Origin: Anaerolineae bacterium
GTDB taxonomy: Bacteria > Chloroflexota > Anaerolineae > Aggregatilineales > J027
Assembly: GCA_019913005.1 (NCBI GenBank)
Contig: JAIOHL010000190.1
Coordinates: 4,732-68,731 of the forward strand
Length of the DNA stretch: 64,000 nt
Reading direction: 5' to 3'
The notes under the pieces were generated by a model. That model searched no databases and was not told the DNA's origin. It saw only the letters and a list, made by a program, of their open reading frames with translations. Positions 919 to 14,570 of this stretch are shown in pieces (the first letter of the stretch is position 1; every line of letters starts with the position of its first letter). The translations under genes and the position numbers were made by a program.

Positions 919-1626
919 TTGTCAGAGATACCCGTTATTCGGACAGCGCATTTATGTAAATCACTGCCTGTTGGGGGGCAGATGTTGGAGATTTTGAGGG
1001 ACATTACCCTTGATATTTGGCCCCAAGAGATGGTGGCGATTATCGGGCCATCGGGCAGCGGCAAAAGCACCTTGATGGGCCTGATGGGTGGTCTCGATTC
1101 AGCCACCAACGGCAAGATATATCTGAGGGGCGAGGACATTACCCTCTTGGGCGAACGTGCCCTGACTCGGATGCGAAATCAAAAAATCGGCTTTGTGTTC
1201 CAATATTTTAATCTTGTGCCAACCCTGAACGCGCTCGAAAATGTCATGCTGCCCCTGCAATATGCCCCTAATAGCCCTCGGCGGGGTCACAAAAAACGCG
1301 CTCAAGAATTATTGGAAATGCTAAATTTGGGTGAACGCATGAATCACAATGCGCGTCAGTTATCGGGTGGGGAGCAGCAGCGGGTAGCGATTGCACGGGC
1401 GCTGGCAAACAACCCCTCAATTTTGCTGTGCGATGAACCCACCGGGAATTTGGATCGGGCATCAACGGCGTTGGTAACAGAGGCCCTGTTTCAAGTGCGC
1501 GAAAATACCGGAACGACAGTGGTCGTGGTGACGCACAATCCCACATTGGCAAAACGCATGGATCGAATTATCGAACTTGTTGATGGGCAAATCGTACCCT
1601 CCCCTGCTACAATTGCCCCCCACTGA
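919..1626 (+). CDS. ABC transporter ATP-binding protein (LolD/MacB-like)
   Basis: Walker A GPSGSGKS, signature [26 protein letters not shown]; TTG start directly after upstream stop. Confidence 0.92.
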
Positions 1627-1652
1627 ACTACTCATTATGAAAGATTGGTTGA

Positions 1653-2741
1653 ATGGAAACTGAAATTTTGACAAAGCCCACTGTTGAAGTGGATGAAAAG
1701 AAACTGAAACGCCAAAAACGCGCCCGCACAACCCTGCGAATCTTTGGCAGTATCTTTGAAAAACTCCTCACCCGCACGGTGGTGACAGGACTCGAAAATA
1801 TCCCTAAACAGGGGCCTGTCTTGTTTGGGCCAAATCATTTTTCGACCTATGACGCGCTTATTTTGATGATTCATCTGCCCAAAGAAGCCCAATTTGTTGG
1901 CCCCGGCGACTTTAAACTCCTGTGGCCCGCGAATCTGGTGGTCGAAAATTTGGGCCTGATTCTGACGGATCGCGGTTCGGTAGATCGTCACAGTCTTAAG
2001 CAGATGGAAGATGTGCTAAAAAATGGCGGGATGTTGGGCTTGTTCCCCGAAGGTGGCACATGGGAGAAAGGCATTCATGATGTCAAATCTGGTGCGGCTT
2101 ATCTTTCGATGGTGACGGGTGCAACGATTGTGCCGATGTCATTGGGGGGAACGTATTGGGCATGGGACAACATCCTACGTTTAAAGCGTCCCCGTATCAC
2201 GATTCATTTTGGTGAGCCGATTCCGCCGATTCAAACCAGCGGCAACCGCAAAACCCGCCAACAGGAGTTGCAGCAGGCCAGCGAAGATTTGATGGATCGC
2301 GTTTACGCCAAACTACCACCGGAAGATCAAAAACTATATGACGATGTGCCGCGCAAACGTTACCGTGCTGAACTAGAATTCATGCCGGATACGTTTAAGC
2401 CAGAAAGTGTTCCGCCTCTATCCGGTTTGACCGAACTCATCAGCAAGCCAAATTTGTTCTATCCAATGCACCGTAATGCGAAATTGCCCTGCCGTCCCTT
2501 TGTCCAGCGCAAAGGTCAATTTACCCCTGCCCGTGAATTTCAGGTAGCGGTGTTGGCTTTGCAAGAAGGGTTTAATACGATTTTTAAAGGCTATCTGGAA
2601 TATCGGCTGGGGGACGAAAAAGCCGCGCTTATTCGACGCGATTTTGAGGAATTTTTACCCTTAATCGAACAGGCGATTAAAGCCGATGTCGCCATCAAAT
2701 TTAAACCGATTGAATGGATGATCGAAGACGGACAGCAGTAG
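1653..2741 (+). CDS. Lysophospholipid acyltransferase (PlsC family) with C-terminal extension
   Basis: HX4D motif NHFSTYD, FPEGG, KSGAAYL. Confidence 0.85.
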   Translation: METEILTKPTVEVDEKKLKRQKRARTTLRIFGSIFEKLLTRTVVTGLENIPKQGPVLFGPNHFSTYDALILMIHLPKEAQFVGPGDFKLLWPANLVVENLGLILTDRGSVDRHSLKQMEDVLKNGGMLGLFPEGGTWEKGIHDVKSGAAYLSMVTGATIVPMSLGGTYWAWDNILRLKRPRITIHFGEPIPPIQTSGNRKTRQQELQQASEDLMDRVYAKLPPEDQKLYDDVPRKRYRAELEFMPDTFKPESVPPLSGLTELISKPNLFYPMHRNAKLPCRPFVQRKGQFTPAREFQVAVLALQEGFNTIFKGYLEYRLGDEKAALIRRDFEEFLPLIEQAIKADVAIKFKPIEWMIEDGQQ

Positions 2742-2757
2742 CAGGTTCAATAAAAAT

Positions 2758-2782
2758 AATGGGTGGTCAAAAGCCACCCATT
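2758..2782. terminator. Probable bidirectional intrinsic terminator
   Basis: AATGGGTGG...CCACCCATT inverted repeat between convergent genes. Confidence 0.7.
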
Positions 2783-2786
2783 TGAT

Positions 2787-3167
2787 TTATGCCCAAGCGT
2801 CGCGGTTATGCGAATTACGGCGGATTTGGCTGTTGGCAAGTGCCGACTGCCACGATTCATAAATGGGAATAACCAGATCAGCGCCGTTTAAATAGAGCGC
2901 CTCGTAGACATGCGGTTGGGGTTTTGCCAGCGACATTTGACCTCCCTGACCTGTTACCGTACCACATGCTTCCACTAAACATCCGATGGCATAGCTGGAG
3001 ACAAAATCCACCTCTGCCAAATCAATCACGATGTTGAGACCCGGATACTCCTGAATAATGCTCCACAAGATTGGTTCAATGCCCCGACAGCCCTGTGTAT
3101 CCAGCCGACCATCAATGACAATCACCGCACTCATACTGGAAACAGCATAGTGTTTGAGAGTAGCCAT
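2787..3167 (-). CDS. STAS-domain anti-sigma factor antagonist
   Basis: IDGRLD, IVIDLAEVDFVSSYAIGCL, GGQMSL pattern typical of SpoIIAA/RsbV. Confidence 0.8.
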   Translation of the reverse strand: MATLKHYAVSSMSAVIVIDGRLDTQGCRGIEPILWSIIQEYPGLNIVIDLAEVDFVSSYAIGCLVEACGTVTGQGGQMSLAKPQPHVYEALYLNGADLVIPIYESWQSALANSQIRRNSHNRDAWA

Positions 3168-3372
3168 ATACTTTCTGGATAAAGATAATTGCGGGTACCC
3201 GATAATAGTACCGTGTACCTATATCATACACGCATTTTTCAAAAATCCATCGGTGTATTACCATAGGACTGTCAGCAAATTGTCTAAAATTACCCTAAAG
3301 TCGGTATCTGGTAAGAGTCTGGCAGGTTTTGGGTGAAAGCCGCCTTACAGATTTTTGGTCTAGGAAAAGCTA

Positions 3373-3381
3373 TGCTATACT
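3373..3381 (+). promoter_or_regulatory. Extended -10 promoter, likely giving a leaderless mRNA
   Basis: TGcTATACT ends 7 nt before ATG 3389; no Shine-Dalgarno in between. Confidence 0.55.
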
Positions 3382-3388
3382 GACCACC

Positions 3389-3691
3389 ATGAATGACCAA
3401 CCACTGGATGCTGAGTTCGCCCAAAACGCCGTTCGCTGGCAGGCATGGTTGCAAAAACATGGCCTTGATGGATTGGCGGACGCCTTAGTGGGGGCAAGTG
3501 AACCCCTTGCACCAATTGGGGCACAGTTGCTGTATGTGGCACAACCCGCGCTCAGTTTGATAGCGCCGCGTCAAGCCATTGGTCGTTGGGCCAGATTACT
3601 CGAAACACCGGGGGGACTGGCATGGCTGCGCGAACAATTAATTCCCGGTGATGCGTTGACTATGAGAGCAGAAGATTCCGATGGCGAATGA
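3389..3691 (+). CDS. Hypothetical protein, first gene of the GlmL-like operon
   Basis: ORF overlaps the next gene; ATG 3389 preferred over TTG 3329. Confidence 0.7.
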   Translation: MNDQPLDAEFAQNAVRWQAWLQKHGLDGLADALVGASEPLAPIGAQLLYVAQPALSLIAPRQAIGRWARLLETPGGLAWLREQLIPGDALTMRAEDSDGE

Positions 3692-4430
3692 AAATACCTA
3701 TTTCTGGCTCATCATTACCCTCGCATTTGTGATGACCGTCTTAAGCGGGGCCATTTCAAATCGCCGCCGCCGATTACCCACGCTGCGCCCTATCCCGGGT
3801 TATGAAGCCATGCCTCGCGCGGTGGACGAATCCATTGAAAGTGACCGCCGTCTCCATCTCTCGCCGGGTTCAGCCGCAGTCGGTCAAACGAGTACCATTA
3901 CGGCCATTGCCGCGACCAGTATTATCTATGCCCTGACCGAACGCCAATCCTTTCTTAATCGTAGCCCTTTGGTAACACTCACCGATCCGGTGACGATGGC
4001 AATGACCAATGATATTCTGCGAAAGGCGTATATGGCACGCGAAAATCTGACCGCCTATCGCAGCCGTGTCGTGTCATGGTTCCCACAAGGACAAAATTCG
4101 GTGGCGTTTGGGGCTGGGGCTGCGATACGAGCAAAAAGTATGGATACTTCCAGCCATATCATGGTGGGTGAATTTGGTCCGGAATTAGCATTTATTGGCG
4201 AGGCAAGTATGCGCTTTCGGCAAAATTTTGTCGCGGCAAGTACCAATCTCGAAGGTCAGGCCATCGCCTATGTTCAATCGGATGCACCCCTGATTGGTGA
4301 GGAAATTTTTGTCGGCAGTGCCTATCTTGAGCCACAGAGCGCCACATTTGCCGGAGGCGTCGTTGCGTTGGATGCGCTCCGTTGGGCACTTATAATTGCC
4401 ATTATTATCGCGGCTATCGTGAACGCCTAA
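3681..4430 (+). CDS. Membrane-anchored conserved protein (DUF6754-like)
   Basis: N- and C-terminal TM helices; LRPIPGYEAM...DAPLIGEEIFVGSAYL recalled from DUF6754-type proteins. Confidence 0.6.
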   Translation: MANENTYFWLIITLAFVMTVLSGAISNRRRRLPTLRPIPGYEAMPRAVDESIESDRRLHLSPGSAAVGQTSTITAIAATSIIYALTERQSFLNRSPLVTLTDPVTMAMTNDILRKAYMARENLTAYRSRVVSWFPQGQNSVAFGAGAAIRAKSMDTSSHIMVGEFGPELAFIGEASMRFRQNFVAASTNLEGQAIAYVQSDAPLIGEEIFVGSAYLEPQSATFAGGVVALDALRWALIIAIIIAAIVNA

Positions 4431-4446
4431 TAAAGGAAAAACCGCT

Positions 4447-5127
4447 GTGCAGGCAGATCGGAAAACACGAAGACGACGGCGTTTGAAATTAGGAAATGCG
4501 GTGAATGCCACGCTGGTTTTGGCGTTGGGATTTACCACGATGGTTGGATTGATCTCCCCAGCCGATTCAACAGTGGGCCTAACTGCTGACATCTTTTTGC
4601 AATTGGCAGGGGTGTTGGCGGCGGTGGCGGTGTTGGTGGGGGTGTCGAATTTGCTGTTTGTACATCTAGGCCGGCTGCCCCGTGTGCGAAAAGGTGGTTT
4701 TTACAGCCTTGTGGTGATTCTATCGGCGGCGGCTGTCACGGCGGTGCATGTGCTTGACCGTACCGACGCATGGGGCGGTGATTTGGAGGGCGAAAAAGTT
4801 GGCCCCCGCTTGTTTGGCGTAATACAGGTCACACTGGAATCAGCCCTTGCCGGGTTAGTGTTCTTTTTCCTTGTTTATGCCGCTTATCGGTTGATGCGCC
4901 ATCGTGTGACATGGGCCAATTTGGTCTTCCTTGCTGCCGTGTTGATTGTGCTGGTTGGCTGGCTGCCTCTCAAGGATTGGGAAGGCGCAGGCGATGTGCG
5001 GGATTGGTTGATGGAAATTCCGGTTACAGCGGGGTCACGCGGCCTGCTGATCGGGATTGGACTGGGAACGGTGACGGTTGGTGTGCGTGTTTTACTAGGT
5101 CGGGAGCGAGCGTACCGTGAGCCATAA
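4447..5127 (+). CDS. Polytopic membrane protein of unknown function
   Basis: About 6 hydrophobic segments; ends RGLLIGIGLG...RVLLGRERAY. Confidence 0.75.
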   Translation: MQADRKTRRRRRLKLGNAVNATLVLALGFTTMVGLISPADSTVGLTADIFLQLAGVLAAVAVLVGVSNLLFVHLGRLPRVRKGGFYSLVVILSAAAVTAVHVLDRTDAWGGDLEGEKVGPRLFGVIQVTLESALAGLVFFFLVYAAYRLMRHRVTWANLVFLAAVLIVLVGWLPLKDWEGAGDVRDWLMEIPVTAGSRGLLIGIGLGTVTVGVRVLLGRERAYREP

Positions 5128-5163
5128 ACTTTATGTGCCATCGGGACGACGGGAGTTATTGTC

Positions 5164-8100
5164 ATGAACGACGACCAAAACTTTAATTTTGATGATATGC
5201 CAGAGCCAAACTTTGGTACCGGTTGGCTCGATAGCAACAAGCTGCCGCCGCAGGATGAGGACAAGACCTCTCTGCCAGATTGGTTAAGTTCGGCTCCGCT
5301 GTTGCAAGATGAGTCGCAATCGTCTGCCGAAACGCCATCGGGTGCTTCCGTACCTGATTGGCTAAGTCAGACGGAATCGGATGATTTTGGCAGCACCTTT
5401 GTAGAAGAACCTGCCCAACGTAGCCCCCTTTCGACTGATGCTCTGCCAGATTGGATATCCAGCAGCGAGGCACCGGAAGAACCCAGTTTCGATTTTGAAG
5501 AACCACCCCTGTTAATTGACGAAGAGCCGGAAGTTGAAGAGAAGCCCACACCCTCGTTGGGGTTAAAGCGGCTGAGTCAGACCGCCCCGGCGGTGCAACC
5601 ACCTGAACAACCTGCTGCTCCACGTCCGGTATCTAGGCCACCAGAGCCACCGCCACCGCCCCAAATTCGCAAATTGGGGCAAAAACGGGAGTCTCAATCC
5701 CTCTCACCGGATGAGATGACATTTGACGAATGGGAACGCCAGCAACATCAAAAGGAATATGAGCAGGTACATGCCGAAGATATTGCCATGACCGAGGCTG
5801 TGCCGGATTGGTTTGTGGATAATGTCGAAATCGGTACTGCCGACAAGGACATCGCTTCTTTAGTGCTGGACTTGGAAGAAGAGGAAGTACCCTATATTCC
5901 TGAAGTGCCTCCACCTACCACTACTGGGTCACTGACCAACTACGTGCCGGATTGGTTTATGGGGTTGGAGGAACAAAATCTTGAAAACGCACCGGAGTGG
6001 GCACGGACTGTTGGGACAGATGACCTAAGTTTTGAAACATTGGTGGATGCCTCAGCTTTTGCACCACCTGAACCCGAACCGGAGCCTCAGCCCGAACTGC
6101 CCACCGCCCCAACTTTTGATGATGATGTACCCGATTGGTTCAAAGGGGTTACCACTCCATCTGCTGAGACAGGCGGGGCAGATGACTGGATGTCGGCTCT
6201 CGATTCGGCCTTAGCTGCCTCGGCAGAAGCACAGATGCCGACCACGAGCCAAGATGAAACCGATCTTGCCGCTGATATGACATTCGAGCAACCAGATTGG
6301 TTTGAACCGTCTGCCGAGACATCACCGGATGCTATGCAGACTTTTGGTGAACCGGATTGGTTTCCAATTGAGCAATCGTCAGAGGCAATGCAGGGGTTTG
6401 TTGAGACACCTGATCAGGAAGCAGGGTTCGAGCCGAGTTTCGATGAACCCGATTGGATGGCGGATGTAGCCCCAGTTGGAGCGCCGGAAACCGAGCAACC
6501 CGCACCTGTCGAAGATTTGTTTACTCTTGAGTCCCCCGCCCCCGAAGAAGACTTTTTTGCCACGATGATGGGGGCTGAGGCCGACACCTTTGCCGAAATG
6601 ATGCAAGAGGGTGAAGAAGAATTCGCATGGGATGAAGCCCCGGCGAGTTTGTTTGGAGAAGGTGGTGCTGCGACTAATCTGTTCGCACAACCTGCGGTTG
6701 AGGATGATAGCCCTGATTGGCTGCGTGAATATGAGGCCCCCGACGAACTCCCCGTCCTACAAGTGCCAGAAGAGCCGACAGTCCTGCTGTCCCGTGAGCA
6801 AGAGACTGCCCCGGAATGGCTAGGGGATATTTCAGGGGTAGATTTTGCGGGCGCGGATGATTTATTTGCGGACGTTCCCGGCAGCAAGCCCCCAGCTTTT
6901 AGCGACCAAGACCTAAAAGCGGTTTCCAGCGGCACGAGCATTGATGACCTGTTGGGTCTGTCCAAAGAATCCAATCTACCAGTAGTCGCAGGGTCAAAGG
7001 GCCTTGTTCCAGTACGCGGCAAGACGCCTACTGAAGAAGTCATGACCAGTGATCTTTTTGAGGGCATTGATGATGAACTGCTCAAGGCGTTGGATGATGC
7101 CTCTCCCAAAGCACCCCCCAAGTCTACGACGTCTGAAACTGAAGCCGTCAAAGAAGCGGTTGTCGCGGATCGCCCCGAGTGGATTGCGGATTTGCGGCCT
7201 GATGTCCCGGTCACGCTAAGTGCGGGTGGAATTAGCATCGCATTTGAGCAGCAGCGTATCAGCGATTTGCCGGACGACCTGCGACGGCTGCGTGAGAAAT
7301 CCGTTGATGTATTGAAGACCGAAGCAGGGGCCTCAGCGCAAATCTCCGACAGTGGCCCATTAGCAGGGGTAACAGGCGGATTGGGGATTGCTCCCCAAGC
7401 AACCGCCCCCGGTGAGCTAAATATGGTGACCCAATTAAGCGTCACGGATTATCAAGCCGAACGGGTTGCGCTGTTGGAAGGCATTTTGGAACTGACCGAA
7501 CAGCGGCGGCGAGCACTGGGCTTGGATGAAGACGAAGAACTGGAAGTCGCAGCAGCGGCACCATCGAAGAAACGTAAACGTACCCGCCCACATTTTGACC
7601 GTTTCCTAATTTCGATTATTTTATTGGCGGCGCTGATTGGCCCATTTTTGAGTGATGCCCTCCATGTGGCCGAAGAAGCCGACAGTAGCGGATTTACGGT
7701 GCGCCAGTCTGCTGTGCCGAAGGCAGTGAATACTATTCAACCGGGGCAGTATGTGTTGATGGCGTTTGAATATGGCCCAACCGCAGCGGGTGAATTAAAC
7801 CCGCTAGCCGAGGCTGTGCTGCGGGATATTTTAAGCCATCGTGGGATACCGATTATTCTCAGCACCAATCCACTTGGAGCGATCAATGCACGCGGGGTAG
7901 TGGAAGACCTCGCCGATGATCCGGCCCTGCTGGATGCTGTCGAACGTGATGAGCCATTGGAAACCCGCGAAGATTATTTTCTTCTGCGTTATGTCTCTGG
8001 CGGGGCGATTGGGATTCGCGGCCTGACACGCAATGAACAGGTCGGCGCGACGATTTTTGCCACTGATGCCGAGGGCGAAAAAACGGGTTTGGAATTTGAC

Positions 8101-8481
8101 ACCCTCGACGCTACTGACTTCGCACTGGTGGTTGTGATTGGCGAACGGGCGGATGATATTCGTAACTGGGCCGAACAATTTGACGTGCCGGGACTGCCCA
8201 AATATGCCTTAATGACCGCCGGAGCTGAACCGCTGGCAACGGCCTATGTTAATGGTATAGGCTATCAGGGTTATCTGGCGGGGTATCGGGACACTTATCG
8301 GTATAATCAACTGCGCAATACCCGGACTCGTGAGGTGTTTGAAGCCCCGGATGATATAGATATTCCCGACCCCGAAATTTCACAATGGCATAGCATGGCG
8401 CTGGGGGCGATGGTCGCCAGTGCATTGATTGGATTAGGTGTGGTCTTTAATCTGCTTCGCGGCCTACGGAGGCGGCGTTGA
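5164..8481 (+). CDS. Large protein: long acidic region with PDW/PEW motifs, TM helix, globular domain, C-terminal TM
   Basis: 1105-aa ORF; D/E/P-rich N-terminal region; KKRKRTR before a TM helix; domain containing AFEYGPTAAGELNP; ends TM + RRRR. Confidence 0.8.
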   Translation: MNDDQNFNFDDMPEPNFGTGWLDSNKLPPQDEDKTSLPDWLSSAPLLQDESQSSAETPSGASVPDWLSQTESDDFGSTFVEEPAQRSPLSTDALPDWISSSEAPEEPSFDFEEPPLLIDEEPEVEEKPTPSLGLKRLSQTAPAVQPPEQPAAPRPVSRPPEPPPPPQIRKLGQKRESQSLSPDEMTFDEWERQQHQKEYEQVHAEDIAMTEAVPDWFVDNVEIGTADKDIASLVLDLEEEEVPYIPEVPPPTTTGSLTNYVPDWFMGLEEQNLENAPEWARTVGTDDLSFETLVDASAFAPPEPEPEPQPELPTAPTFDDDVPDWFKGVTTPSAETGGADDWMSALDSALAASAEAQMPTTSQDETDLAADMTFEQPDWFEPSAETSPDAMQTFGEPDWFPIEQSSEAMQGFVETPDQEAGFEPSFDEPDWMADVAPVGAPETEQPAPVEDLFTLESPAPEEDFFATMMGAEADTFAEMMQEGEEEFAWDEAPASLFGEGGAATNLFAQPAVEDDSPDWLREYEAPDELPVLQVPEEPTVLLSREQETAPEWLGDISGVDFAGADDLFADVPGSKPPAFSDQDLKAVSSGTSIDDLLGLSKESNLPVVAGSKGLVPVRGKTPTEEVMTSDLFEGIDDELLKALDDASPKAPPKSTTSETEAVKEAVVADRPEWIADLRPDVPVTLSAGGISIAFEQQRISDLPDDLRRLREKSVDVLKTEAGASAQISDSGPLAGVTGGLGIAPQATAPGELNMVTQLSVTDYQAERVALLEGILELTEQRRRALGLDEDEELEVAAAAPSKKRKRTRPHFDRFLISIILLAALIGPFLSDALHVAEEADSSGFTVRQSAVPKAVNTIQPGQYVLMAFEYGPTAAGELNPLAEAVLRDILSHRGIPIILSTNPLGAINARGVVEDLADDPALLDAVERDEPLETREDYFLLRYVSGGAIGIRGLTRNEQVGATIFATDAEGEKTGLEFDTLDATDFALVVVIGERADDIRNWAEQFDVPGLPKYALMTAGAEPLATAYVNGIGYQGYLAGYRDTYRYNQLRNTRTREVFEAPDDIDIPDPEISQWHSMALGAMVASALIGLGVVFNLLRGLRRRR

Positions 8482-9152
8482 TGACGGTAGAAAACCTTGA
8501 CCTTATTGCAGGATGGGCCGGATTGGTGCTGACGCTGATGGTGTTCAGCTATTTACTGGCGGATAATTTTCTCTATCGTATCGCGGTGCATGTGTTGATT
8601 GGCACGGCGGCGGCGTACATCGCAATTGCGGCGGTAGAAGAGGTGCTGCTGCCGTGGCTGCGAGCGACGGTGTTTAGCGATGACGCTGAAACCTCTGCCA
8701 GCATTCGTGCGTTGGGGATACTACCGATTTTCTTAGGAGCATTGCTGCTGCTCAAAGCCTCACCACGATTTGCACGGATGGGCAATTTCGGCACAGTCTT
8801 TATGATCGGAATCGGCACAGGCGTGGCGTTGGTCGGCGCGGTGATTGGCACAGTCCTGCCCCTCGCCCGCGATGCCAGCAACAGCTTTGACCACGAATCG
8901 GTTTTAAATGGCGCGGTTCTGCTGGTTGGTACGCTTTGCACACTGGTTTATTTCCAATATCTCAGCCGCCGTCGCAGTGATGGTGAACCTGTCAACCGGG
9001 TGCATATTCGAACATTGCGTTTTGTTGGTCAGGGATTTGTCACCCTTACCCTCGGCGCATTATATGCCAGTGCCATTTTGACCAGCCTTTCCATTTTTAG
9101 CTCGGTCATCCAAGATCAACTCCGATTTATTCTGGATCAACTAGGAGGGTAG
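8478..9152 (+). CDS. Polytopic membrane protein of unknown function
   Basis: LTLMVFSYLLADNFLYRIA...; about 6 TM segments; overlaps upstream stop. Confidence 0.75.
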   Translation: MMTVENLDLIAGWAGLVLTLMVFSYLLADNFLYRIAVHVLIGTAAAYIAIAAVEEVLLPWLRATVFSDDAETSASIRALGILPIFLGALLLLKASPRFARMGNFGTVFMIGIGTGVALVGAVIGTVLPLARDASNSFDHESVLNGAVLLVGTLCTLVYFQYLSRRRSDGEPVNRVHIRTLRFVGQGFVTLTLGALYASAILTSLSIFSSVIQDQLRFILDQLGG

Positions 9153-9157
9153 CCGCT

Positions 9158-11221
9158 GTGATGCTAGGACAAACCTCGAACAGCGGGCGATCTATCCTTG
9201 CGATGGATTTTGGTTCCGTCAACACCCGCCTGATGATTATTGATGTGGTTGATGGTCAATATCGCATGGTCACACGCAGTCAGACCCGTACTACGATGCG
9301 GCCTCCCATTGGGGACGTGACGGTGGGGATGAGCCGCGCCATTGAAAATATCCAAGATGCGACGGGCCGGATTTTGATTGACACCGACGGCTATTTAATT
9401 CATCCCGAAAATGAAGATGGGGGCATTGATCGCGTTGTAGCGACCAGCAGTGCCAGCCGTCCACTTCGTGCGGTGTTGGCCGGGCTGATTACCGAAGTCA
9501 GCCTTGCCAGTGCCCGCCATGCCCTCAACGGGACGTATATTGAGGTTGCTGAGATTTTAAGCATTTCAGACGGACGAACCGAAGAAGAACGCATCAATGC
9601 CATCATGAAAGCCAAACCTGACCTCGTGTTTATCAGCGGGGGGACGGACGGCGGCAATCAAGATTCGGTTTTAGAATTGACCCGCGCTACTGCAATGGCC
9701 TTGATGCTGCTGCCCGATGATGAACGCCCTAATGTTTTGTATGCAGGTAATGAACTACTGGCGAATACTGTTGTGGGTATGCTGCAAGACCATGCCAGTG
9801 TATTTGTTGCCCCCAACGTGCGTCCTGCTGTCCATGAGGAAAAATTGGGCACGGCCCGCATGGAATTGGCAAACGTCTACAGCAATTTTATGACGGCCCA
9901 ACCTGTGGGTGGATTCGATCAAGTAACCTCACTTGCCAGTGAACTCAGTGGGATTGGGATTGTTCCCACCGCGCAAGGCGTCGCCAATATGGTGCGCTTT
10001 TTGGGCGAACTGCTGCAAAAAGGGAGTGCTGGGGTGCTGCACGTGGACATTGGCAGCACCACCAGTACGCTTGTCACCAGTCTTGATAAACAGGTCAATT
10101 CCACCATCCGCAGCGATTTGGGCTTGGGCCACAGCCTCTTGACCACCCTAGCGGTTTTGAATGTCGAACAGGTACTGCGCTGGCTACCTTTTCCAGCAAC
10201 CGAAGACGACCTCTGGAACTATGCCTATAACAAAATATTGATGCCCTCGACCATTCCTCAGACCATGCGTGATTTGATGATTGAACAGGCCATCGCCCGT
10301 GAGATCGTCCGCCATTTGGTCAACGGGGCACGCGCTAGTTGGCGCCACGCATCCAAAGACGGCGAGCTACCCGCTTTCCGACCCATTATTGTGGCAGGGG
10401 CAACCCTTACAGATGCGCCCCACCCCGGCATTACGGCCATGTTGATGTTAGATGCCTTCGAGCTAGAGGGGGTGCATAATCTCTATATTGACCCCTACGC
10501 CATGATCGCGCTGTTGGGGGCAATCGCCTATACTGACCCAACCGTGACCGTCCAAACCTTTGAACACAATGGCTTGGTGAATCTTGGGACAGCGTTTTGT
10601 GCGACAGGCCGGGTACGCGGACGCAGCCAACGCCCTGCCATGAAAATCCAGATTACGTTGGAAAGTGGTCGCACGGTTGAGAAAAAACTGCTCCCCGGTG
10701 AAATTTGGGCCGCACCCTTGTCCTCTGGTCAAGAGGTACAAGTCGTGGTTCGCATGGGACGCGGGATGAGGATTAATGGCAAACGTCGTATCAAACAGAC
10801 TGTAACCGCCGGGGCCGCCGGGTTGGTTTTTGATACACGGGGCCGTCCGCTCAACTTACCCGCCCTACGCCGCCGCCCTGCAATGTATGCGGAATGGTGG
10901 ACGGGTGTAACCGGACAGGTCTGGACGGGGATGCAGGAATTCTCTGAAGCCGAGCCATTGTCCGAAATGGATAAGGCTGCTCGTGAAACCCGCCGTGATC
11001 GTTTTGCCGAAGAAAAGCTGCTGCAAGAGGTCATGTTTGAAGCAGAGGCCGCCGAAGGATTTGACGAGGGTGAAATAATAGGTTCGGGTCGCGCCGCCAC
11101 TGGACGGGATCGTAAACGGGGCAAACCTGAAAAAGCCAAGAAGTCGTCGCGGCGTGGTCGTAAACAAGAAGAACCGGAAGAAACTGATGAAGCGCCGGAT
11201 ATTCTGGAAAGGCTGAGATAG
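9158..11221 (+). CDS. Glutamate mutase L (GlmL)-like actin-fold (ASKHA) protein
   Basis: Phosphate motifs ILAMDFGSVNT and LHVDIGSTTS; ATSSA, PDLVFISGGTDGGN, NVRP, VFDTRGRPL. Confidence 0.75.
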   Translation: MMLGQTSNSGRSILAMDFGSVNTRLMIIDVVDGQYRMVTRSQTRTTMRPPIGDVTVGMSRAIENIQDATGRILIDTDGYLIHPENEDGGIDRVVATSSASRPLRAVLAGLITEVSLASARHALNGTYIEVAEILSISDGRTEEERINAIMKAKPDLVFISGGTDGGNQDSVLELTRATAMALMLLPDDERPNVLYAGNELLANTVVGMLQDHASVFVAPNVRPAVHEEKLGTARMELANVYSNFMTAQPVGGFDQVTSLASELSGIGIVPTAQGVANMVRFLGELLQKGSAGVLHVDIGSTTSTLVTSLDKQVNSTIRSDLGLGHSLLTTLAVLNVEQVLRWLPFPATEDDLWNYAYNKILMPSTIPQTMRDLMIEQAIAREIVRHLVNGARASWRHASKDGELPAFRPIIVAGATLTDAPHPGITAMLMLDAFELEGVHNLYIDPYAMIALLGAIAYTDPTVTVQTFEHNGLVNLGTAFCATGRVRGRSQRPAMKIQITLESGRTVEKKLLPGEIWAAPLSSGQEVQVVVRMGRGMRINGKRRIKQTVTAGAAGLVFDTRGRPLNLPALRRRPAMYAEWWTGVTGQVWTGMQEFSEAEPLSEMDKAARETRRDRFAEEKLLQEVMFEAEAAEGFDEGEIIGSGRAATGRDRKRGKPEKAKKSSRRGRKQEEPEETDEAPDILERLR

Positions 11222-11227
11222 AGGCCG

Positions 11228-12328
11228 ATGAGATACCATCCAGAAGAACGCATTGTGCTGGAATATACCGTCATTAAACGTGACCGGACGCTGCCACCGC
11301 GGGCCTATGGTGCGGTGCGCGTTTCGCCGGGGGCCAATGTCGAAAGTAATCACATTATTGCTGAGGGCGAACTGCCACAGGATTACCGGATTATAGACGT
11401 GGCGGGGCCGCTCAATGTTGACCCCGATGATATTGAAATGCTGTCGAGTATCATGACTGTTGCACAGGGCGATTTCATCCATGCTGGACAGCCATTGGCA
11501 ACCGCCCCACGCCGTAAATATCGCAAACGTATTCCCCGTGCTCCCGTTGAAGGTGTCGTGAGCTTGGTTGAACAAGGCAATGTTATTTTGCAGACCAATC
11601 CCCAACCTGTTGCGGTTTATGCCCGTATGCAAGGCCGGGTCACGGAACTGATTGGCAATAAAGGGGCGCGGATTGAAACTGTAGGCTCACTCATTCAAGG
11701 CGCATGGGGTAACGGACGATTTTTGTTCTCGTCCTTCAGCTTTGAGCCAAAAGATGGATTGCAAAGTTTGGTCAAACAGACTAGCCTCCTAGAAAACGTG
11801 CGGGGTCGGGTCTATGTCTTGGATCGCCCTATCACAGTCGAAGATTTACGGTTGGTGGTCAAGAAAGAATTGGGTGGATTAGTCGCCCCATCCATGAGCT
11901 ATCACTTGCGCGAAACCGCGATGGCGCTTAAAGTTCCTATTATACTGACCGAAGGTTTTGGCGAGGCGCAGATGACCCGCCGTATTCATGACATGCTGCG
12001 GGAATTTGAGAACAAACGCCAAGCCGCCTTTGATGCGATTTTGCCCAATCGCTGGACGAGTGAACGACCTGAAATTGTCATTCCCTATCAGGCGTCCGGT
12101 CAAAATGCGTTTGAGCCAACCTTTGATGCAGTGTTGATCGTTGGGGCAACAGTGCGCCTGAGCCGTGCGCCACATGAAGGGCAGATTGCTACCGTAACCG
12201 ACTTGCCCGATAAGCCCCAAATCATGGAAAATGGCTTACGGGTAGCGGCGGCGCAGGTCAAGCTCCGCAATGGGCATGAAGTGTTTGTCCCACTTGCCAA
12301 TATCGAATTGCTAGGTGAGGCGAAATAG
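11228..12328 (+). CDS. Conserved hypothetical protein with hybrid-motif (lipoyl-like) segments and a C-terminal KOW/SH3-like region
   Basis: VAQGDFIHAGQPLA...RAPVEGVV; IILTEGFG; GATVRLSRAPHEGQIATV...VPLANIE. Confidence 0.65.
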   Translation: MRYHPEERIVLEYTVIKRDRTLPPRAYGAVRVSPGANVESNHIIAEGELPQDYRIIDVAGPLNVDPDDIEMLSSIMTVAQGDFIHAGQPLATAPRRKYRKRIPRAPVEGVVSLVEQGNVILQTNPQPVAVYARMQGRVTELIGNKGARIETVGSLIQGAWGNGRFLFSSFSFEPKDGLQSLVKQTSLLENVRGRVYVLDRPITVEDLRLVVKKELGGLVAPSMSYHLRETAMALKVPIILTEGFGEAQMTRRIHDMLREFENKRQAAFDAILPNRWTSERPEIVIPYQASGQNAFEPTFDAVLIVGATVRLSRAPHEGQIATVTDLPDKPQIMENGLRVAAAQVKLRNGHEVFVPLANIELLGEAK

Positions 12329-12377
12329 ACGGAATGGCAGGTGCTTGCCGAATGTTATCTAGGAGAGGAATGCATCC

Positions 12378-12995
12378 ATGAACAACTTTCCATTTGATGA
12401 CAACGCCATTGACTTGTTTGCAACTGAATCGCTGGTTGAGGACGAGAATTTTGATTTGCCGGCGGATGAGTCTAGTAATGGCATTAGTCGGCGATTTTTA
12501 ATTGCCAGCATGGTGTTGGTGATTACCATTGTGTTGGGTGTCTGTGGAATTGTATTAGCGGTGCGTGATGGAAATTCTTCTAATATCGCTGCTAGGACAA
12601 GTATCCCTTTGACCAATCAAGCTAACCAAACAGCGTTTGCTGCGACCCAGACTCGTGGGGCTATTTTGGATGCAACAGGCACGGCGGTCACAGAGCGATT
12701 GAACCGCAATGCGACCAACACGGCGATTACACGGGCCTCTGGCACTGCTTCGGCGGTTAATCATTTATTGGATGGGTCAAGAACGGCTATTGGGTTTCCG
12801 ACTATTTCACCATATCAAGAAACTGAACAGGCGAGTTACATTCAGAGCAAGACAGCAGAACGTCCATCCGTTATGCAAGCACAAATTCTGGATTTTGATG
12901 GCAATCCGGTGACAGGCATTACCATCCACATTTATCAAGATGATGGGGATGGTGAGTTTAATTTACCTAGCCCGACCTCTACAAAAGCTGGCTAG
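12378..12995 (+). CDS. Membrane-anchored Thr/Ala-rich protein; shorter paralog of the next gene
   Basis: SD AGGAG; colinear similarity to the N-terminal half of 13095-14522. Confidence 0.7.
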   Translation: MNNFPFDDNAIDLFATESLVEDENFDLPADESSNGISRRFLIASMVLVITIVLGVCGIVLAVRDGNSSNIAARTSIPLTNQANQTAFAATQTRGAILDATGTAVTERLNRNATNTAITRASGTASAVNHLLDGSRTAIGFPTISPYQETEQASYIQSKTAERPSVMQAQILDFDGNPVTGITIHIYQDDGDGEFNLPSPTSTKAG

Positions 12996-13094
12996 GTAGC
13001 AAGTGCAAATAAACAGAATAGGATACACTTGTAACCAAGATGCTGTGTAGGCAGCATCATTTAGAGATATTTTTTGAGGGGAGAGAAAAAGCCG

Positions 13095-14522
13095 ATGAGT
13101 TCTCAAGGCTTTCCGTTTGACGATGATAACGAAATTGACCCCTTTGCCGAGGATTTTGACCCATTTGAAAGCGGGTCGCTGGTAGAGGAAGAGAATTTTG
13201 ACCTTCCACCAGATGAGCAAGAGGGCGGAATCAGCCGTACATTCCTTTTTGCGGGTGGGTTTATTATCCTCGCCGTTTTGCTGGGGATTGTTGGCGTGGT
13301 CGCTTTGTTATTAGGCGACGACGGTGGCAACGAAAGTGTGTTGCTGGCAACTCAACGGGCAGGCACCAACCAAGCGATTGAAACTGCGATTGCCGCAACT
13401 ACAACCCGCCTAGCCGAAATTGACGCAACTTTGACCGTCACGACGGCGCGGCTTTTCCAAGATTCGACCAGTACGGCAATTGCGGCTTTTGATGGTACCA
13501 ATACGGCAGTGGCGGCTCAATTGGAAGGTAGTCGAACGGCGATTGCGTTTAATGCCACTCAAACGGGTGCGGCTTTGCAAACGCAGGGTGCTCAATTTGT
13601 CTTGAGCCAGACTCCCCCAACCGCAACCCCTCAGACTTTCCAAGCCCAGATTTTGGATCAAAATGGCAATCCGGTGACCGGCATTGTCATCAATATTTAT
13701 GCCGATGACGGCGATGGTGAGTTTAATCCTGCCGCCCAAGCAACCGTGGCACCCACACCTACCCGCACACCAACAGCAACCGCGACAGTTCAGCAGTTGC
13801 CACCCACCGCCACTGCTACCCCTAGCCCATCGGCGACTACGGGGTCATCTGCACCTGCCGCTCCTGCTGGAACAGAAGAAGCGGGTGATGGTGCGCCTGT
13901 TGGAGCGAAGATACAGGACGACGGCCCAAGTGTGGAAATCTTTGCACGCCGTTTGCCAAATGACCCCCAAAATGGGCCAGCGCAGGGTGGGCCAACCCCA
14001 ACTACGGGCGATGGTCAGCCGATTCAAACCATCGTAATTGGGCCAGACGGGGCATTTGAGATTCCGCCACTTGGTCCGGGGAATTATTTTCTTGATGTGG
14101 GTCTGCCACCCGGAACTTATACCTTCCGTATTGGTGAAGAACAGGTGGTGATCAATTTGGTGTCGGGGACGCAGCAACAGACGTTGAATCTGCCCAATAG
14201 CGTGAACCTGACCATCATTGTACGGGCGGTGACTGCGCCAACCGTTGTGACGCTGACCCCGACCAGCACCCCCACCCTTGATACCCGTATTCCACCATTC
14301 GATCTGACCGTAACAGCGATATTCGCTAATCAGACAGCCTCAGCCCAACCGCAGATTGTCACCAGCCCAACGATTGTTCTGCCGACGCAAATTGCCCAAA
14401 CCGGGTTGTTCAGCGATGCGGCGGAAGAAGCAACCCCCGCAGGGCTAACCCTGTTGGCAATTCTAGGTGTAGGGTTGATTGCGGTAGTTGTTGTGGTACG
14501 GAGACTGCGTTCATCCATCTAA
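13095..14522 (+). CDS. Surface protein with N-terminal TM, split CnaB/SdrD-B-like domain and LPXTG-like C-terminal signal
   Basis: QILDQNGNPVTGIVINIYADDGDGEFN and GPDGAFEIPPLGPGNY; IAQTG, spacer, TM, RRLR. Confidence 0.7.
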   Translation: MSSQGFPFDDDNEIDPFAEDFDPFESGSLVEEENFDLPPDEQEGGISRTFLFAGGFIILAVLLGIVGVVALLLGDDGGNESVLLATQRAGTNQAIETAIAATTTRLAEIDATLTVTTARLFQDSTSTAIAAFDGTNTAVAAQLEGSRTAIAFNATQTGAALQTQGAQFVLSQTPPTATPQTFQAQILDQNGNPVTGIVINIYADDGDGEFNPAAQATVAPTPTRTPTATATVQQLPPTATATPSPSATTGSSAPAAPAGTEEAGDGAPVGAKIQDDGPSVEIFARRLPNDPQNGPAQGGPTPTTGDGQPIQTIVIGPDGAFEIPPLGPGNYFLDVGLPPGTYTFRIGEEQVVINLVSGTQQQTLNLPNSVNLTIIVRAVTAPTVVTLTPTSTPTLDTRIPPFDLTVTAIFANQTASAQPQIVTSPTIVLPTQIAQTGLFSDAAEEATPAGLTLLAILGVGLIAVVVVVRRLRSSI

Positions 14523-14570
14523 AAAGCCCCGAATTTGGGGGTACAGACAAACCCCATAATTGATTATTGT

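What the first reader, a model, noticed from the sequence alone, without database searches (positions are those of the whole stretch)
3389..12328. Candidate undescribed membrane machine built around a GlmL-like actin-fold ATPase
Seen: seven co-oriented genes that overlap or are separated by at most 36 nt. They encode a small protein, a DUF6754-like TM protein, two ~6-TM proteins, a 1105-aa membrane-anchored acidic protein, a GlmL-like protein with two DxGS phosphate motifs, and a hybrid-motif/KOW-like protein. Known: GlmL (MutL of clostridial glutamate mutase operons) is thought to be an ASKHA-fold reactivating factor for B12 mutases. No mutase subunit or B12-binding gene is in this window. 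Inference: the ATPase has been repurposed to power or assemble a multi-subunit membrane complex, for example for export, surface-structure assembly or cell shape. My recollection that similar clusters recur in other phyla is unverified.
Basis: partly seen in the sequence, partly recalled or inferred. Interest (0 to 1): 0.82.

Follow-up and report, generated by a model that had tools for sequence, protein, structure and literature searches.

The report
Conserved actin-fold ATPase membrane gene cluster
Seven (really eight) tightly packed genes encode an actin/Hsp70-fold ATPase, its predicted partner protein and four membrane proteins of no known function; the set is conserved across Chloroflexota and several other bacterial phyla, is mislabelled "glutamate mutase L" in databases, and matches no described system that I could find.

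Summary
In detail: seven co-oriented genes (3389-12328), gaps -11 to +36 nt, with the stated features. An eighth conserved gene follows (12378-12995).

The gene order is conserved in all 80 fetched Chloroflexota loci. The ATPase (g6) is in 41 of 41 genomes of the same order.

g6 belongs to Pfam MutL (PF13941) but fails all three NCBIfam GlmL-type cut-offs. It carries an extra C-terminal domain. The genome has no glutamate mutase E gene.

g6 and the hybrid-barrel/KOW protein g7 co-occur across the phylum and pass a complex prediction (0.83, best control 0.00).

In metagenome contigs, one of them Eisenbacteria-like, the layout is g1-g6-g7 followed by one to three tandem copies of the membrane module g2-g5. 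Named homologues come from Eisenbacteria, Zixibacteria, Poribacteria and others.

Some Chloroflexota families keep g6-g7 without the membrane module. In some of these, a zinc-ribbon protein next to g6 carries the same Trp-motif array that g4 bears.

RNA-library contigs cover the whole cluster.

Best reading: a modular, undescribed machine with a cytoplasmic ASKHA ATPase complex acting on or at a dedicated membrane complex. Transport is my preferred guess but is not shown. No paper was found in seven searches.

The parts
3389..3691 (+). g1: small soluble protein (100-120 aa; the ORF opens at TTG 3329, ATG at 3389) with one conserved moderately hydrophobic stretch; no family
   Evidence: 0 Pfam families. 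Homologue upstream of g2 in 53 of 80 Chloroflexota loci. In other-phyla contigs it sits directly upstream of g6 (24 of 80 loci).
3681..4430 (+). g2: DUF6754 protein with an N-terminal TM, a ~200-aa domain and a C-terminal TM. The domain is predicted to be cytoplasmic (19 Lys/Arg).
   Evidence: PF20539 E 2.3e-20. Single copy in the genome. Topology. The other-phyla form scores E 3.3e-117 to PF20539.
4447..5127 (+). g3: 6-TM membrane protein, N-terminus predicted inside, no Cys, no family
   Evidence: N-in in 59 of 62 homologues by Lys/Arg count. No consistent Pfam hit in 27 members. No PDB relative.
5164..7602 (+). g4 N-terminal region: ~810-aa acidic, Pro-rich disordered cytoplasmic tail carrying 12 P[DE]W[LFIMV] motifs
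   Evidence: 12 motifs against 0.09 expected; 0 of 2000 shuffles reach 12. Only 3 frames in the 7.6-Mb genome have 3 or more motifs. The motif recurs in most Chloroflexota g4 homologues. 17 of 39 uncut homologues start with a CxxC..CxxC zinc ribbon.
7603..8481 (+). g4 C-terminal core: TM, ~250-aa extracytoplasmic Rossmann-like alpha/beta domain, TM. This part is conserved in all phyla.
   Evidence: Alignment A6. AF2 model pLDDT 86.2. No Foldseek match at E<=1e-3. No PDB sequence relative.
8478..9152 (+). g5: 6-TM membrane protein, N-terminus predicted outside (opposite to g3); no family
   Evidence: 79 of 80 loci. N-out in 61 of 80. No Pfam hit in 29 members. No PDB relative. Atlas 'named' search gave no usable hit.
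9158..11221 (+). g6: ASKHA (actin/Hsp70-fold) ATPase of Pfam MutL, plus a ~120-aa conserved C-terminal domain and a charged tail
   Evidence: PF13941 E 1.7e-61. Below all NCBIfam GlmL cut-offs. Single copy. Present in 41 of 41 genomes of the order. Nucleotide motifs invariant.
11228..12328 (+). g7: three-domain partner of g6 with a barrel-sandwich hybrid, an alpha/beta domain with a conserved TEGFG loop, and a KOW/SH3-like domain
   Evidence: AF2 pLDDT 90.6. Foldseek gives KOW/NusG matches only. Complex with g6 scores ipSAE 0.83 against best control 0.00. 3843 representative clusters at E<=0.001. No Pfam family above cut-off.
12378..12995 (+). g8: eighth, Chloroflexota-specific member with an acidic N-terminal tail, a juxtamembrane NRTF-like motif, a TM, and a Thr/Pro/Ala-rich ectodomain
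   Evidence: An ORF of this type lies directly downstream of g7 in 66 of 70 loci that have enough sequence. RNA-library contigs bridge g7/g8.
13074..14522 (+). g9: longer paralogue-like protein of the g8 type, with a hydrophobic C-terminal end followed by a basic tail
   Evidence: sequence. phmmer hits in 14 of 80 loci. Membership in the system is uncertain.

Best explanation
The cluster encodes a modular, so far undescribed cell machine, not a glutamate-mutase accessory factor.

The engine is a cytoplasmic heteromer of g6 and g7, probably with the small protein g1. g6 is an ASKHA-fold ATPase with an added C-terminal domain. g7 is a hybrid-barrel / alpha-beta / KOW protein.

The engine works at the inner face of the membrane on a dedicated four-protein module:
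- g2 offers a cytoplasmic DUF6754 domain.
- g3 and g5 are two unrelated 6-TM proteins of predicted opposite orientation.
- g4 displays an extracytoplasmic alpha/beta domain.

Most likely, ATP-driven opening and closing of the ASKHA clamp is passed through g7 to the membrane module. This would drive a conformational cycle across the membrane. My preferred guess is transport or translocation of an unknown substrate.

In Chloroflexota, g4 has gained a long acidic tail with a multivalent Trp-motif array. An eighth protein, g8, was also added.

Shown:
- the genes and their conservation;
- co-occurrence and co-absence of g6 and g7;
- modular rearrangements of the gene set;
- presence of the cluster in RNA libraries;
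- the non-GlmL status of g6.

Predicted: g6-g7 binding, membrane topologies and domain folds.

Inferred: coupling of the engine to the membrane module, ATPase activity and transport.

Rough odds: a real, conserved, non-GlmL, membrane-associated ATPase system, about 0.85. The engine physically serves the membrane module, about 0.55 (the confidence figure given for this explanation). The output is transport, about 0.3.
For: (1) Conserved order. g1-g7 are colinear and on one strand in all 80 genome loci. Hits: g6 80, g5 79, g7 76, g2 61, g3 61, g1 53, g4 49. Misses lie mostly at contig ends or at the diverged g4 position.

(2) Phyletic profile in one 251-genome sample of the phylum: g6 155, g7 112, g5 72.
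- Families without g6 also lack g7 and g5 (f18 0/10, f27 0/8, f30 0/8, f33 0/9).
- The three same-class genomes lacking g7 (G126, G153, G162) also lack g6.

(3) Shuffled linkage.
- g2-g6 sit at one locus and g7 elsewhere in G256, G288 and G248.
- g1-g6-g7 is followed by 1-3 tandem g2-g5 modules in metagenome contigs. 23 loci have g2; 9 have two or more modules and 3 have three.
- One engine serving several membrane modules is the pattern of shared-ATPase transporters. That comparison is an analogy recalled by me, not a test.

(4) Complex prediction for g6 (residues 1-600) with g7.
- ipSAE 0.83 in 3 of 3 runs; best of 3 controls 0.00.
- The mark was reached by 58 of 80 solved complexes and 2 of 110 mismatched pairs.
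- Runs agree in at least 94% of contacts; partner pLDDT 87.
- My own alignments were used, so the calibration holds only roughly.
- The interface uses the most conserved stretch of g6 (357-373) and, in g7, the KOW domain and the TEGFG loop.

(5) The ATP motifs of g6 are invariant.

(6) g6 is very strongly conserved across named phyla: 71-92% identity to an Eisenbacteria-type query.

(7) Topology: g3 N-in in 59/62 and g5 N-out in 61/80.

(8) RNA-library contigs of four runs from one study cover 2500-14800. They bridge g1/g2, g3/g4, g4/g5, g5/g6, g6/g7 and g7/g8. One contig spans 7096-12682.
Against: - g6-g7 exist without any detectable membrane module in whole families: f31, f34, f19 and f37. 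The same holds in 5 of 5 near-complete genomes tested. The engine therefore has a function that does not need g2-g5.
- No component resembles a known transporter, channel or motor.
- ATPase activity is inferred from motifs only.
- The RNA evidence is from assembled contigs of one study. Such contigs cannot show a single transcript or exclude DNA carry-over.
- The promoter and terminator scan found no more than chance.
- Topologies rest on a simple hydropathy and Lys/Arg count of my own.
Confidence: 0.55

Rival explanations
1. Membrane-tethered cytoskeleton or scaffold. g6, with g7 as cofactor, polymerises like FtsA, MreB or MamK at the membrane. The Trp-motif array of g4, or of the separate zinc-ribbon protein, is a multivalent tether. 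The membrane module links the polymer to the envelope for shape, septum or surface-layer organisation.
For: - g6 has the ASKHA fold.
- In families without g2-g5 (f34, f37), the gene upstream of g6 encodes a zinc-ribbon protein. It has 7-10 LPxW[LM] motifs in a long disordered region and a short amphipathic basic C-terminus of the kind that tethers FtsA or MinD to membranes. The comparison with FtsA/MinD is recalled.
- The same zinc ribbon plus array forms the N-terminus of g4 in 17 of 39 homologues. The array is thus always membrane-tethered and always next to g6-g7.
- Cross-phylum identity of g6 of 71% or more is in the range I associate with cytoskeletal or chaperone proteins (recalled).
Against: - Polymerisation is untested.
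- The other-phyla systems have no such arrays.
- 1-3 tandem membrane modules per engine fit a shared-energiser logic better.
- The genome already has FtsA and two MreB genes.
- The MutL, Hydantoinase_A and reactivase relatives of g6 are, as far as I recall, not filament formers.
Confidence: 0.2
2. Soluble ATP-dependent enzyme or chaperone. g6-g7 is a two-subunit cytoplasmic enzyme or remodelling factor. It would be analogous to hydantoinase A/B-type ATP-dependent enzymes, or to ASKHA reactivases of radical enzymes. The membrane genes would be a functionally looser neighbour, for example delivering or removing its substrate.
For: - g6-g7 occur alone in many Chloroflexota families.
- g7 can be unlinked from g6. 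16 of 48 metagenome loci with room upstream show no g6.
- Precomputed Pfam labels give Hydantoinase_A (PF01968) together with PF13941 for many other-phyla g6 proteins.
- g7 has strictly conserved loops.
Against: - g5 lies directly beside g6 in essentially every genome that has it (coordinates).
- In the sample, 70 of 72 g5-positive genomes also have g6. The exceptions are G126, a weak hit at 4e-11, and G174.
- No HyuB-like or B12/radical enzyme partner was seen in the neighbourhoods.
- The hybrid-barrel Lys position of g7 is not conserved (consensus), so a biotin or lipoyl carrier role is unlikely.
Confidence: 0.15
3. Redox-driven or ion-translocating complex distantly related to Na+-NQR or Rnf. 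g7 would be NqrA/RnfC-like, g3/g5 NqrD/E-like (oppositely oriented 6-TM pair), and g4 NqrC-like.
For: - Weak NQRA_N and RnfC_N-type hybrid-barrel signals for g7 (atlas lead).
- g3 and g5 are ~220-aa 6-TM proteins of predicted opposite orientation, as I recall for NqrD/NqrE.
Against: - The NQRA_N score is below cut-off (19.1 against 25).
- No Rnf-Nqr family hit appeared in 27 g3 members or 29 g5 members, even at E<=1.
- g3 has no cysteine.
- g3 and g5 are not detectably homologous.
- No flavin, Fe-S or NADH domains were found.
- An ATPase has no place in such a complex.
Confidence: 0.03
4. Genuine GlmL: an accessory or reactivating factor of a B12-dependent glutamate, ornithine or lysine mutase, as the database names say.
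For: Pfam MutL membership. Source names are 'glutamate mutase L' and 'methylaspartate mutase'.
Against: - NCBIfam GlmL 105.5 bits against cut-off 475. Or-4 79.5 against 600. TIGR01319 63.7 against 204.
- No glmE (PF06368) in the 96% complete genome.
- No mutase was identified beside it: the g1-g7 order fills the 80 genome loci, and the recurrent other neighbours that I sent to Pfam were unrelated. I did not annotate every flanking ORF of the 179 loci examined.
- g6 has an extra conserved C-terminal domain.
Confidence: 0.01

Closest known systems
GlmL / MutL (accessory protein of clostridial glutamate mutase; Pfam PF13941, NCBIfam NF040745)
   Same: The ASKHA-fold core of g6 aligns over the whole Pfam model (residues 13-470, E 1.7e-61). 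Both phosphate-binding DxGS motifs are kept.
   Different: - Scores far below every curated GlmL-type cut-off.
- ~120-aa extra C-terminal domain.
- Obligate partner g7.
- No mutase genes in the genome or neighbourhood.
- GlmL's proposed chaperone/reactivase role is recalled, not read here.
ASKHA reactivases with a small partner (diol dehydratase reactivase DdrA-DdrB, EutA) - recalled
   Same: An ASKHA ATPase working as a heteromer that uses ATP to remodel a partner protein. This is the best mechanistic analogy for 'clamp motion does work on a bound protein'.
   Different: g7 is unrelated in domain make-up to DdrB. No B12 enzyme is present. The partners here are membrane proteins. Not tested by any search.
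Hydantoinase A/B-type ATP-dependent enzymes (Pfam PF01968 Hydantoinase_A)
   Same: Precomputed Pfam labels list PF01968 beside PF13941 for many other-phyla g6 proteins. These enzymes are also two-subunit.
   Different: No HyuB-like subunit. The window's g6 did not hit PF01968 at E<=0.1. The genomic context is membrane proteins.
Shared-ATPase transport systems (ECF transporters, Mce/YrbE systems) - recalled analogy
   Same: One cytoplasmic energiser gene set followed by one to three paralogous membrane modules with their own ectodomains.
   Different: The energiser is ASKHA-fold, not ABC. No membrane subunit matches any transporter family. No substrate-binding protein was recognised.
Na+-NQR / Rnf
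   Same: Sub-threshold NqrA/RnfC-type hybrid barrel in g7. Two ~220-aa 6-TM subunits of predicted opposite orientation.
   Different: No family hits, no cofactor motifs, and an ATPase is present.
Membrane tethers of bacterial cytoskeletal proteins (FtsA/ZipA; MamK with the acidic repetitive MamJ) - recalled
   Same: An actin-fold protein encoded beside a membrane-anchored protein with a long disordered, repetitive, acidic linker (g4 N-terminal region; zinc-ribbon array proteins).
   Different: No sequence relation. Polymerisation of g6 is unknown. The own genome keeps FtsA and MreB.

Membership tests
GlmL / methylaspartate mutase accessory protein | Matches the Pfam MutL domain | tested here: met
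   PF13941 E 1.7e-61, 208.8 bits, cut-off 27
GlmL / methylaspartate mutase accessory protein | Reaches the curated equivalog or subfamily score (NF040745, NF040744, TIGR01319) | tested here: not met
   105.5 against 475; 79.5 against 600; 63.7 against 204.05 bits
GlmL / methylaspartate mutase accessory protein | Encoded with glutamate mutase subunits (glmS/glmE) or another B12 aminomutase | tested here: not met
   PF06368 gives 0 matches in the own genome, which is 96% complete. The neighbours in 80 genome loci are g1-g5 and g7. Only glmE was searched genome-wide.
DUF6754 (PF20539) | Score above the Pfam gathering cut-off over the full model | tested here: met
   g2: 73.3 bits, profile positions 9-246 of 257. 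Other-phyla g2: E 3.3e-117.
Actin-like cytomotive filament proteins (FtsA, MreB, ParM, MamK) | Family HMM match | tested here: not met
   PF14450 and PF06723 hit other loci of the genome (C21, C82, C333, C312), not g6.
Actin-like cytomotive filament proteins (FtsA, MreB, ParM, MamK) | ATP-dependent polymerisation | not testable with these tools
   Needs purified protein.
Na+-NQR / Rnf | NqrA/RnfC N-terminal domain above cut-off, and Rnf-Nqr family 6-TM subunits | tested here: not met
   NQRA_N 19.1 bits against 25. No Rnf-Nqr hit among 27 g3 and 29 g5 members at E<=1.
Na+-NQR / Rnf | Redox cofactor sites (Cys ligands in the D/E-like subunits, flavin domains) | tested here: not met
   g3 has no Cys and g5 has one. 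No flavin or Fe-S domain hits.
ABC / ECF-type transporters | ABC ATPase and recognised permease family inside the conserved unit | tested here: not met
   No ABC_tran hit in g1-g8. The ABC ATPase at 919-1626 is not a conserved neighbour: it co-occurs only in the near-identical locus L015.
Hydantoinase A/B enzymes | Hydantoinase_A domain together with a HyuB partner | tested here: inconclusive
   PF01968 appears in precomputed labels of other-phyla g6 but not for the window's g6 at E<=0.1. No HyuB-like neighbour was seen.

The most novel reading that the evidence does not exclude
This is a previously unrecognised class of primary membrane machine. Its energiser is an actin/Hsp70-fold (ASKHA) ATPase heteromer (g6-g7), rather than an ABC, P-type, AAA+ or rotary ATPase. 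It drives a new four-subunit membrane module (DUF6754 protein, two oppositely oriented 6-TM proteins, and a bitopic ectodomain protein). The system is conserved from Chloroflexota to Eisenbacteria, Zixibacteria and Poribacteria-type lineages, and is plugged into one to three paralogous membrane modules. In Chloroflexota it was elaborated with a multivalent Trp-motif tether that recruits the engine to the membrane.
Probability: 0.3. Interest if true: 0.92.

Novelty: categorically new. Interest (0 to 1): 0.82.

Why it matters
If the reading holds, thousands of genomes carry a conserved, expressed multi-protein system whose every subunit lacks a characterised relative. The g7 family alone has 3843 representative clusters at 50% identity. 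The g6 search hit its ceiling of 8000 scored candidates. The central ATPase is systematically misnamed 'glutamate mutase L' or 'methylaspartate mutase'.

The system is near-universal in Anaerolineae-type Chloroflexota, which are abundant in bioreactors, sediments and soils. It also occurs in several candidate phyla known only from metagenomes.

A membrane machine energised by an ASKHA-fold ATPase would be a new principle of energy coupling at the bacterial membrane. The alternative, a new membrane-tethered actin-fold scaffold with a multivalent Trp-motif tether, would matter just as much for bacterial cell biology.

At the least, the annotation of this protein family should be corrected.

Tried and rejected
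**Ideas tested and rejected**

- g3 and g5, or g2 and g4C, as duplicated paralogues.
  - hhalign on my rough alignments gave g3/g5 probability 0.6% and g2/g4 probability 30%.
  - On clean alignments, g2/g4C matched only a TM helix (probability 6%) and g3/g5 gave 0.2%. Rejected.
- g4 and g8 sharing an acidic FxFDD N-terminal motif. Only 2 of 39 g4 homologues have it. Rejected.
- g6 replacing FtsA or MreB. The genome has FtsA and two MreB genes. Rejected.
- Cpl-7 cell-wall-binding repeat in g7. The profile match to 5i8l (E 7.5e-8) is a 25-residue stretch against a chain that I recall as internally repeated (not checked), in a protein with no signal peptide. I treat it as spurious and did not follow it up.

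**Searches that found nothing**

- g4C fold. Foldseek against PDB gave only generic Rossmann-like hits (best E 5e-3, TM about 0.25).
- g7 whole-chain fold. Only the KOW domain drives the hits. The middle domain remains unassigned.
- Atlas search for g5 among named clusters: no usable hit.
- Promoter and terminator scan: 11 and 11 sites against 10.5 and 13.8 expected, so no operon boundaries can be drawn.
- Conserved flanking genes are housekeeping (AccA, Era-like GTPase, LpxB, PGM, GcvP) and give no functional hint.
- The 16 of 48 metagenome loci with room upstream of g7 but no g6 may be unlinked arrangements. I did not examine them further.

**Literature**

Seven searches, of which I saw listings only. 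No paper was opened and no supplements were seen.
- 'DUF6754': 0 papers. 'PF13941': 0. 'TIGR01319': 0.
- 'glutamate mutase L': 1 paper, unrelated (ThiC).
- 'glutamate mutase L'/'Chloroflexi', 'GlmL'/'ASKHA' and the five-term actin-like/Chloroflexota search: nothing relevant.
- The library lacks most subscription journals, so 'not in print' is limited to these searches.

**Not done**

- Contacts between g6-g7 and g2, g1 or the Trp-motif peptides.
- Folds of g2, g3, g5 and g6.

Full report
**1. What is in the window**

The region holds seven + strand ORFs with junctions of -11, +16, +36, -4, +5 and +6 nt:

| Gene | Coordinates | Size |
|---|---|---|
| g1 | 3389-3691 (ORF opens at TTG 3329) | 100-120 aa |
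| g2 | 3681-4430 | 249 aa |
| g3 | 4447-5127 | 226 aa |
| g4 | 5164-8481 | 1105 aa |
| g5 | 8478-9152 | 224 aa |
| g6 | 9158-11221 | 687 aa |
| g7 | 11228-12328 | 366 aa |

Family matches:
- g2 is DUF6754.
- g6 is MutL (PF13941, residues 13-470).
- g7 gives only sub-threshold barrel-sandwich-hybrid hits.
- g1, g3, g4 and g5 have no family.

NCBIfam scores g6 far below the curated cut-offs of GlmL (105.5 against 475), of the ornithine-pathway relative (79.5 against 600), and even of the broad TIGR01319 subfamily (63.7 against 204). The genome is 7.6 Mb in 365 contigs and 96% complete. It has one PF13941 gene, one DUF6754 gene and no glutamate mutase E subunit.

**2. Conservation in Chloroflexota**

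- g6 has a homologue in 41 of 41 genomes of the same order, covering 24 of 24 genera.
The 80 best loci were fetched. By their record titles nearly all are Anaerolineae-type Chloroflexota. Two are labelled Pleurocapsa MAGs.
- phmmer with the window's proteins against all ORFs of these loci found g6 in 80, g5 in 79, g7 in 76, g2 and g3 in 61 each, g1 in 53 and g4 in 49. The order was always g1-g2-g3-g4-g5-g6-g7 on one strand. Misses are mostly contig ends or a diverged gene at the g4 position: 29 loci share a ~720-aa protein there.
- Directly after g7, 66 of 70 loci with enough sequence encode a protein of one recognisable type. It has an acidic N-terminal tail, an NRTF-like juxtamembrane motif, one TM and a Thr/Pro/Ala-rich remainder. 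The window's 12378-12995 is of this type, so the conserved unit in this phylum has eight genes.

**3. The phylum-wide pattern**

One sample of 251 genomes was searched three times: g6 profile 155, g7 (single protein, less sensitive) 112, and g5 profile 72.

| Pattern | Families (with match / scored) |
|---|---|
| All three present | f9 16/16, f10 6/7, f24 18/18, f16 2/2 |
| g6 (and g7) but no g5 | f31 16/16 against 0/16; f34 18/18 against 0/18; f19 5/5 against 0/5; f37 4/4 against 0/4 |
| None of the three | f18 0/10, f27 0/8, f30 0/8, f33 0/9 |

The three same-class genomes without g7 (G126, G153, G162) also lack g6.

I fetched 16 loci around distant g7 hits:
- 3 had the full cluster.
- 10 had g6-g7 adjacent without membrane genes.
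- 3 had g7 alone. In those three genomes, g(1)-g2-g3-g4-g5-g6 lie together at another locus.

Five near-complete genomes of the 'g6-g7 only' type gave 0/5 for g5 and 0/5 for DUF6754.

So g6-g7 is the invariant core, and g2-g5 is a module that travels with g6 wherever it exists.

**4. Other phyla**

- A g7 profile finds named homologues in candidate division Zixibacteria and Candidatus Poribacteria. Atlas leads point to Planctomycetota and Fidelibacterota.
- A metagenome scan with those g7 relatives returned 80 contigs. My HMMs found g6 in 42, always upstream of g7 and within 2.1 kb. They found g1 in 24 and g2-g5 in 20-23.
- The arrangement there is g1-g6-g7 followed by one to three tandem copies of g2-g3-g4-g5. 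Of 23 loci with g2, 9 have two or more modules and 3 have three.
- In this version g4 is only ~280 aa (TM, ectodomain, TM). g2 carries an extra N-terminal ectodomain; by eye it looks fibronectin-III-like, but Pfam gave no hit. g6 ends after its C-terminal domain (601 aa).
- The g6 of one contig is 100% identical to a protein that NCBI names from a Candidatus Eisenbacteria MAG. Homologues at 71-92% identity are named from Eisenbacteria, Zixibacteria, Coatesbacteria, Fermentibacteria, CSSED10-310 and a 'Bacillota bacterium'. They are annotated as glutamate mutase L or methylaspartate mutase.
- The g7 family has 3843 representative clusters at E<=0.001, of which 1330 are at E<=1e-30.

**5. The engine**

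- The nucleotide-binding motifs of g6 are invariant or nearly so in 16 diverse homologues.
- No solved structure is related by sequence.
- g7 folds confidently (pLDDT 90.6) into three domains: an N-terminal barrel-sandwich hybrid, a central alpha/beta domain and a C-terminal KOW/SH3-like domain. Only the last finds matches in the PDB.
- A complex prediction of g6 (1-600) with g7 gave ipSAE 0.83 in three runs against 0.00 for the best of three controls. Runs agreed in at least 94% of contacts, and partner pLDDT was 87. The mark was reached by 58 of 80 solved complexes and 2 of 110 mismatched pairs. I used my own alignments, so these counts hold only roughly.
- The interface joins the best conserved stretch of g6 (357-373, also 419-422) to the KOW domain and the TEGFG loop of g7.
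- This supports binding but does not prove it.

**6. The membrane module**

- By hydropathy and Lys/Arg counts, g3 is N-in (59 of 62 homologues) and g5 is N-out (61 of 80). Both have six TM segments. They are not detectably homologous.
- g2 has two TM segments around a basic, hence probably cytoplasmic, DUF6754 domain.
- The g4 core has two TM segments around an acidic domain. That domain models as a Rossmann-like alpha/beta sandwich (pLDDT 86.2) with no specific structural neighbour.
- None of the four has a Pfam, PDB or atlas relative beyond DUF6754 itself.

**7. The Trp-motif array**

- The ~810-aa acidic N-terminal tail of g4 has 12 P[DE]W[LFIMV] motifs against 0.09 expected. None of 2000 shuffles reached 12.
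- Genome-wide, only two other frames have three or more motifs. Both are TPR proteins on another contig.
- The motif recurs in most Chloroflexota g4 homologues. 17 of 39 uncut homologues begin with a zinc ribbon. Pfam supports this in 2 of 6 tested, with weaker sub-threshold hits in 2 more.
- In families that lack g2-g5, the gene just upstream of g6 in four fetched loci encodes a zinc-ribbon protein. It has a long Pro/Gln-rich region, 7-10 LPxW[LM] motifs and a short basic amphipathic C-terminus.
- The same 'zinc ribbon + Trp array' unit is therefore either fused to the membrane protein g4 or free beside g6-g7 with what looks like its own membrane-binding tail.
- I infer that in Chloroflexota the array tethers or organises the engine at the membrane. 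This is untested, and the other-phyla systems lack it.

**8. Expression**

- Four RNA-library runs of one bioreactor study hold 65-94% of the sampled words of the cluster.
- Their contigs, at 99% identity or more, cover 2500-14800. They bridge the g1/g2, g3/g4, g4/g5, g5/g6, g6/g7 and g7/g8 junctions. One contig spans 7096-12682.
- Contigs cannot prove a single transcript or exclude DNA.
- The consensus promoter and terminator scan is at chance level. The exception is a strong bidirectional hairpin at 2758-2782, upstream of the divergent STAS gene.

**9. Interpretation**

- The system is real, ancient or widely transferred, and under strong constraint. It is not GlmL in function.
- Gene fusion and fission, shuffled linkage and co-absence tie g6, g7 and, where present, g2-g5 together.
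- One engine with up to three paralogous membrane modules, each with its own ectodomains, plus a pair of oppositely oriented 6-TM proteins, suggests an energised transmembrane process. I prefer transport or translocation at roughly 0.3.
- The free-standing g6-g7 pairs and the multivalent tether keep two rivals alive: a membrane-tethered scaffold or cytoskeleton (0.2) and a soluble enzyme or chaperone (0.15).
- Nqr/Rnf-like and true GlmL readings are contradicted by tests.

**10. Limits**

- No experiment was done.
- No engine-membrane contact was tested.
- Topologies come from a simple script.
- The taxonomy of the metagenome contigs is unknown, except through identical or near-identical named proteins.
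- g7 counts from the single-protein query understate its range.
- Literature coverage is partial (seven searches of open-access papers and bioRxiv; listings only).

Noticed in passing
window 12378-12995 and 13074-14522; L083:12901-13485: The genes after g7 encode proteins with a strongly acidic N-terminal tail, an NRTF-like motif before the TM, and a Thr/Pro-rich ectodomain. At least one homologue (L083) ends in an LPxTG-like motif followed by a hydrophobic stretch and a basic tail, like a sortase signal. They could be cargo or a surface component of the system.
   Followed up: partly
L199 (G000:C32) 6042-10943 (-) and 3384-5972 (-): These are the only other proteins of the genome with 3 or more P[DE]W[LFIMV] motifs. 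They are two adjacent TPR-domain proteins (1633 aa with 12 motifs, 862 aa with 5) with very acidic repetitive regions. They may share the motif's unknown binding partner.
   Followed up: partly
L099:5639-7126, L100:12469-14256(-), L103:12773-14839(-), L109:12469-14385(-): These zinc-ribbon proteins upstream of g6 share, besides the Trp motifs, a conserved internal segment (around 'NMRVPSRPR') and a basic amphipathic C-terminal end. Neither was analysed further.
   Followed up: no
window 106-3167: The upstream genes are a GH114 glycoside hydrolase (106-918), an ABC ATPase (919-1626), an acyltransferase (1653-2741) and a divergent STAS-domain protein (2787-3167, - strand). A strong bidirectional terminator-like hairpin lies at 2758-2782. 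Beyond the near-identical locus L015, they are not conserved next to the cluster.
   Followed up: partly
L030, L048: Two contigs carrying the Chloroflexota-type cluster are deposited as 'uncultured Pleurocapsa sp.' MAGs. This is probably a binning or labelling error rather than a cyanobacterial occurrence.
   Followed up: no
G108:C1:840229-841029, G228:C103 and C62, G091:C375: Some Chloroflexota genomes hold a second, shorter (455-486 aa) PF13941-type protein that matches only the N-terminal part of the g6 profile. These may be true GlmL-like paralogues. Their neighbourhoods were not examined.
   Followed up: no
window 11228-12328 (g7 profile positions 148-172): There is a short profile match (E 7.5e-8) to the Cpl-7 lysozyme cell-wall-binding repeat (PDB 5i8l). 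I judged it spurious because it is short and, as I recall, repeated in the target. It was not examined residue by residue.
   Followed up: no
window 14632-14949: A YbjQ-family protein (PF01906, E 1.2e-39) lies just after g9. No link to the cluster was seen.
   Followed up: no
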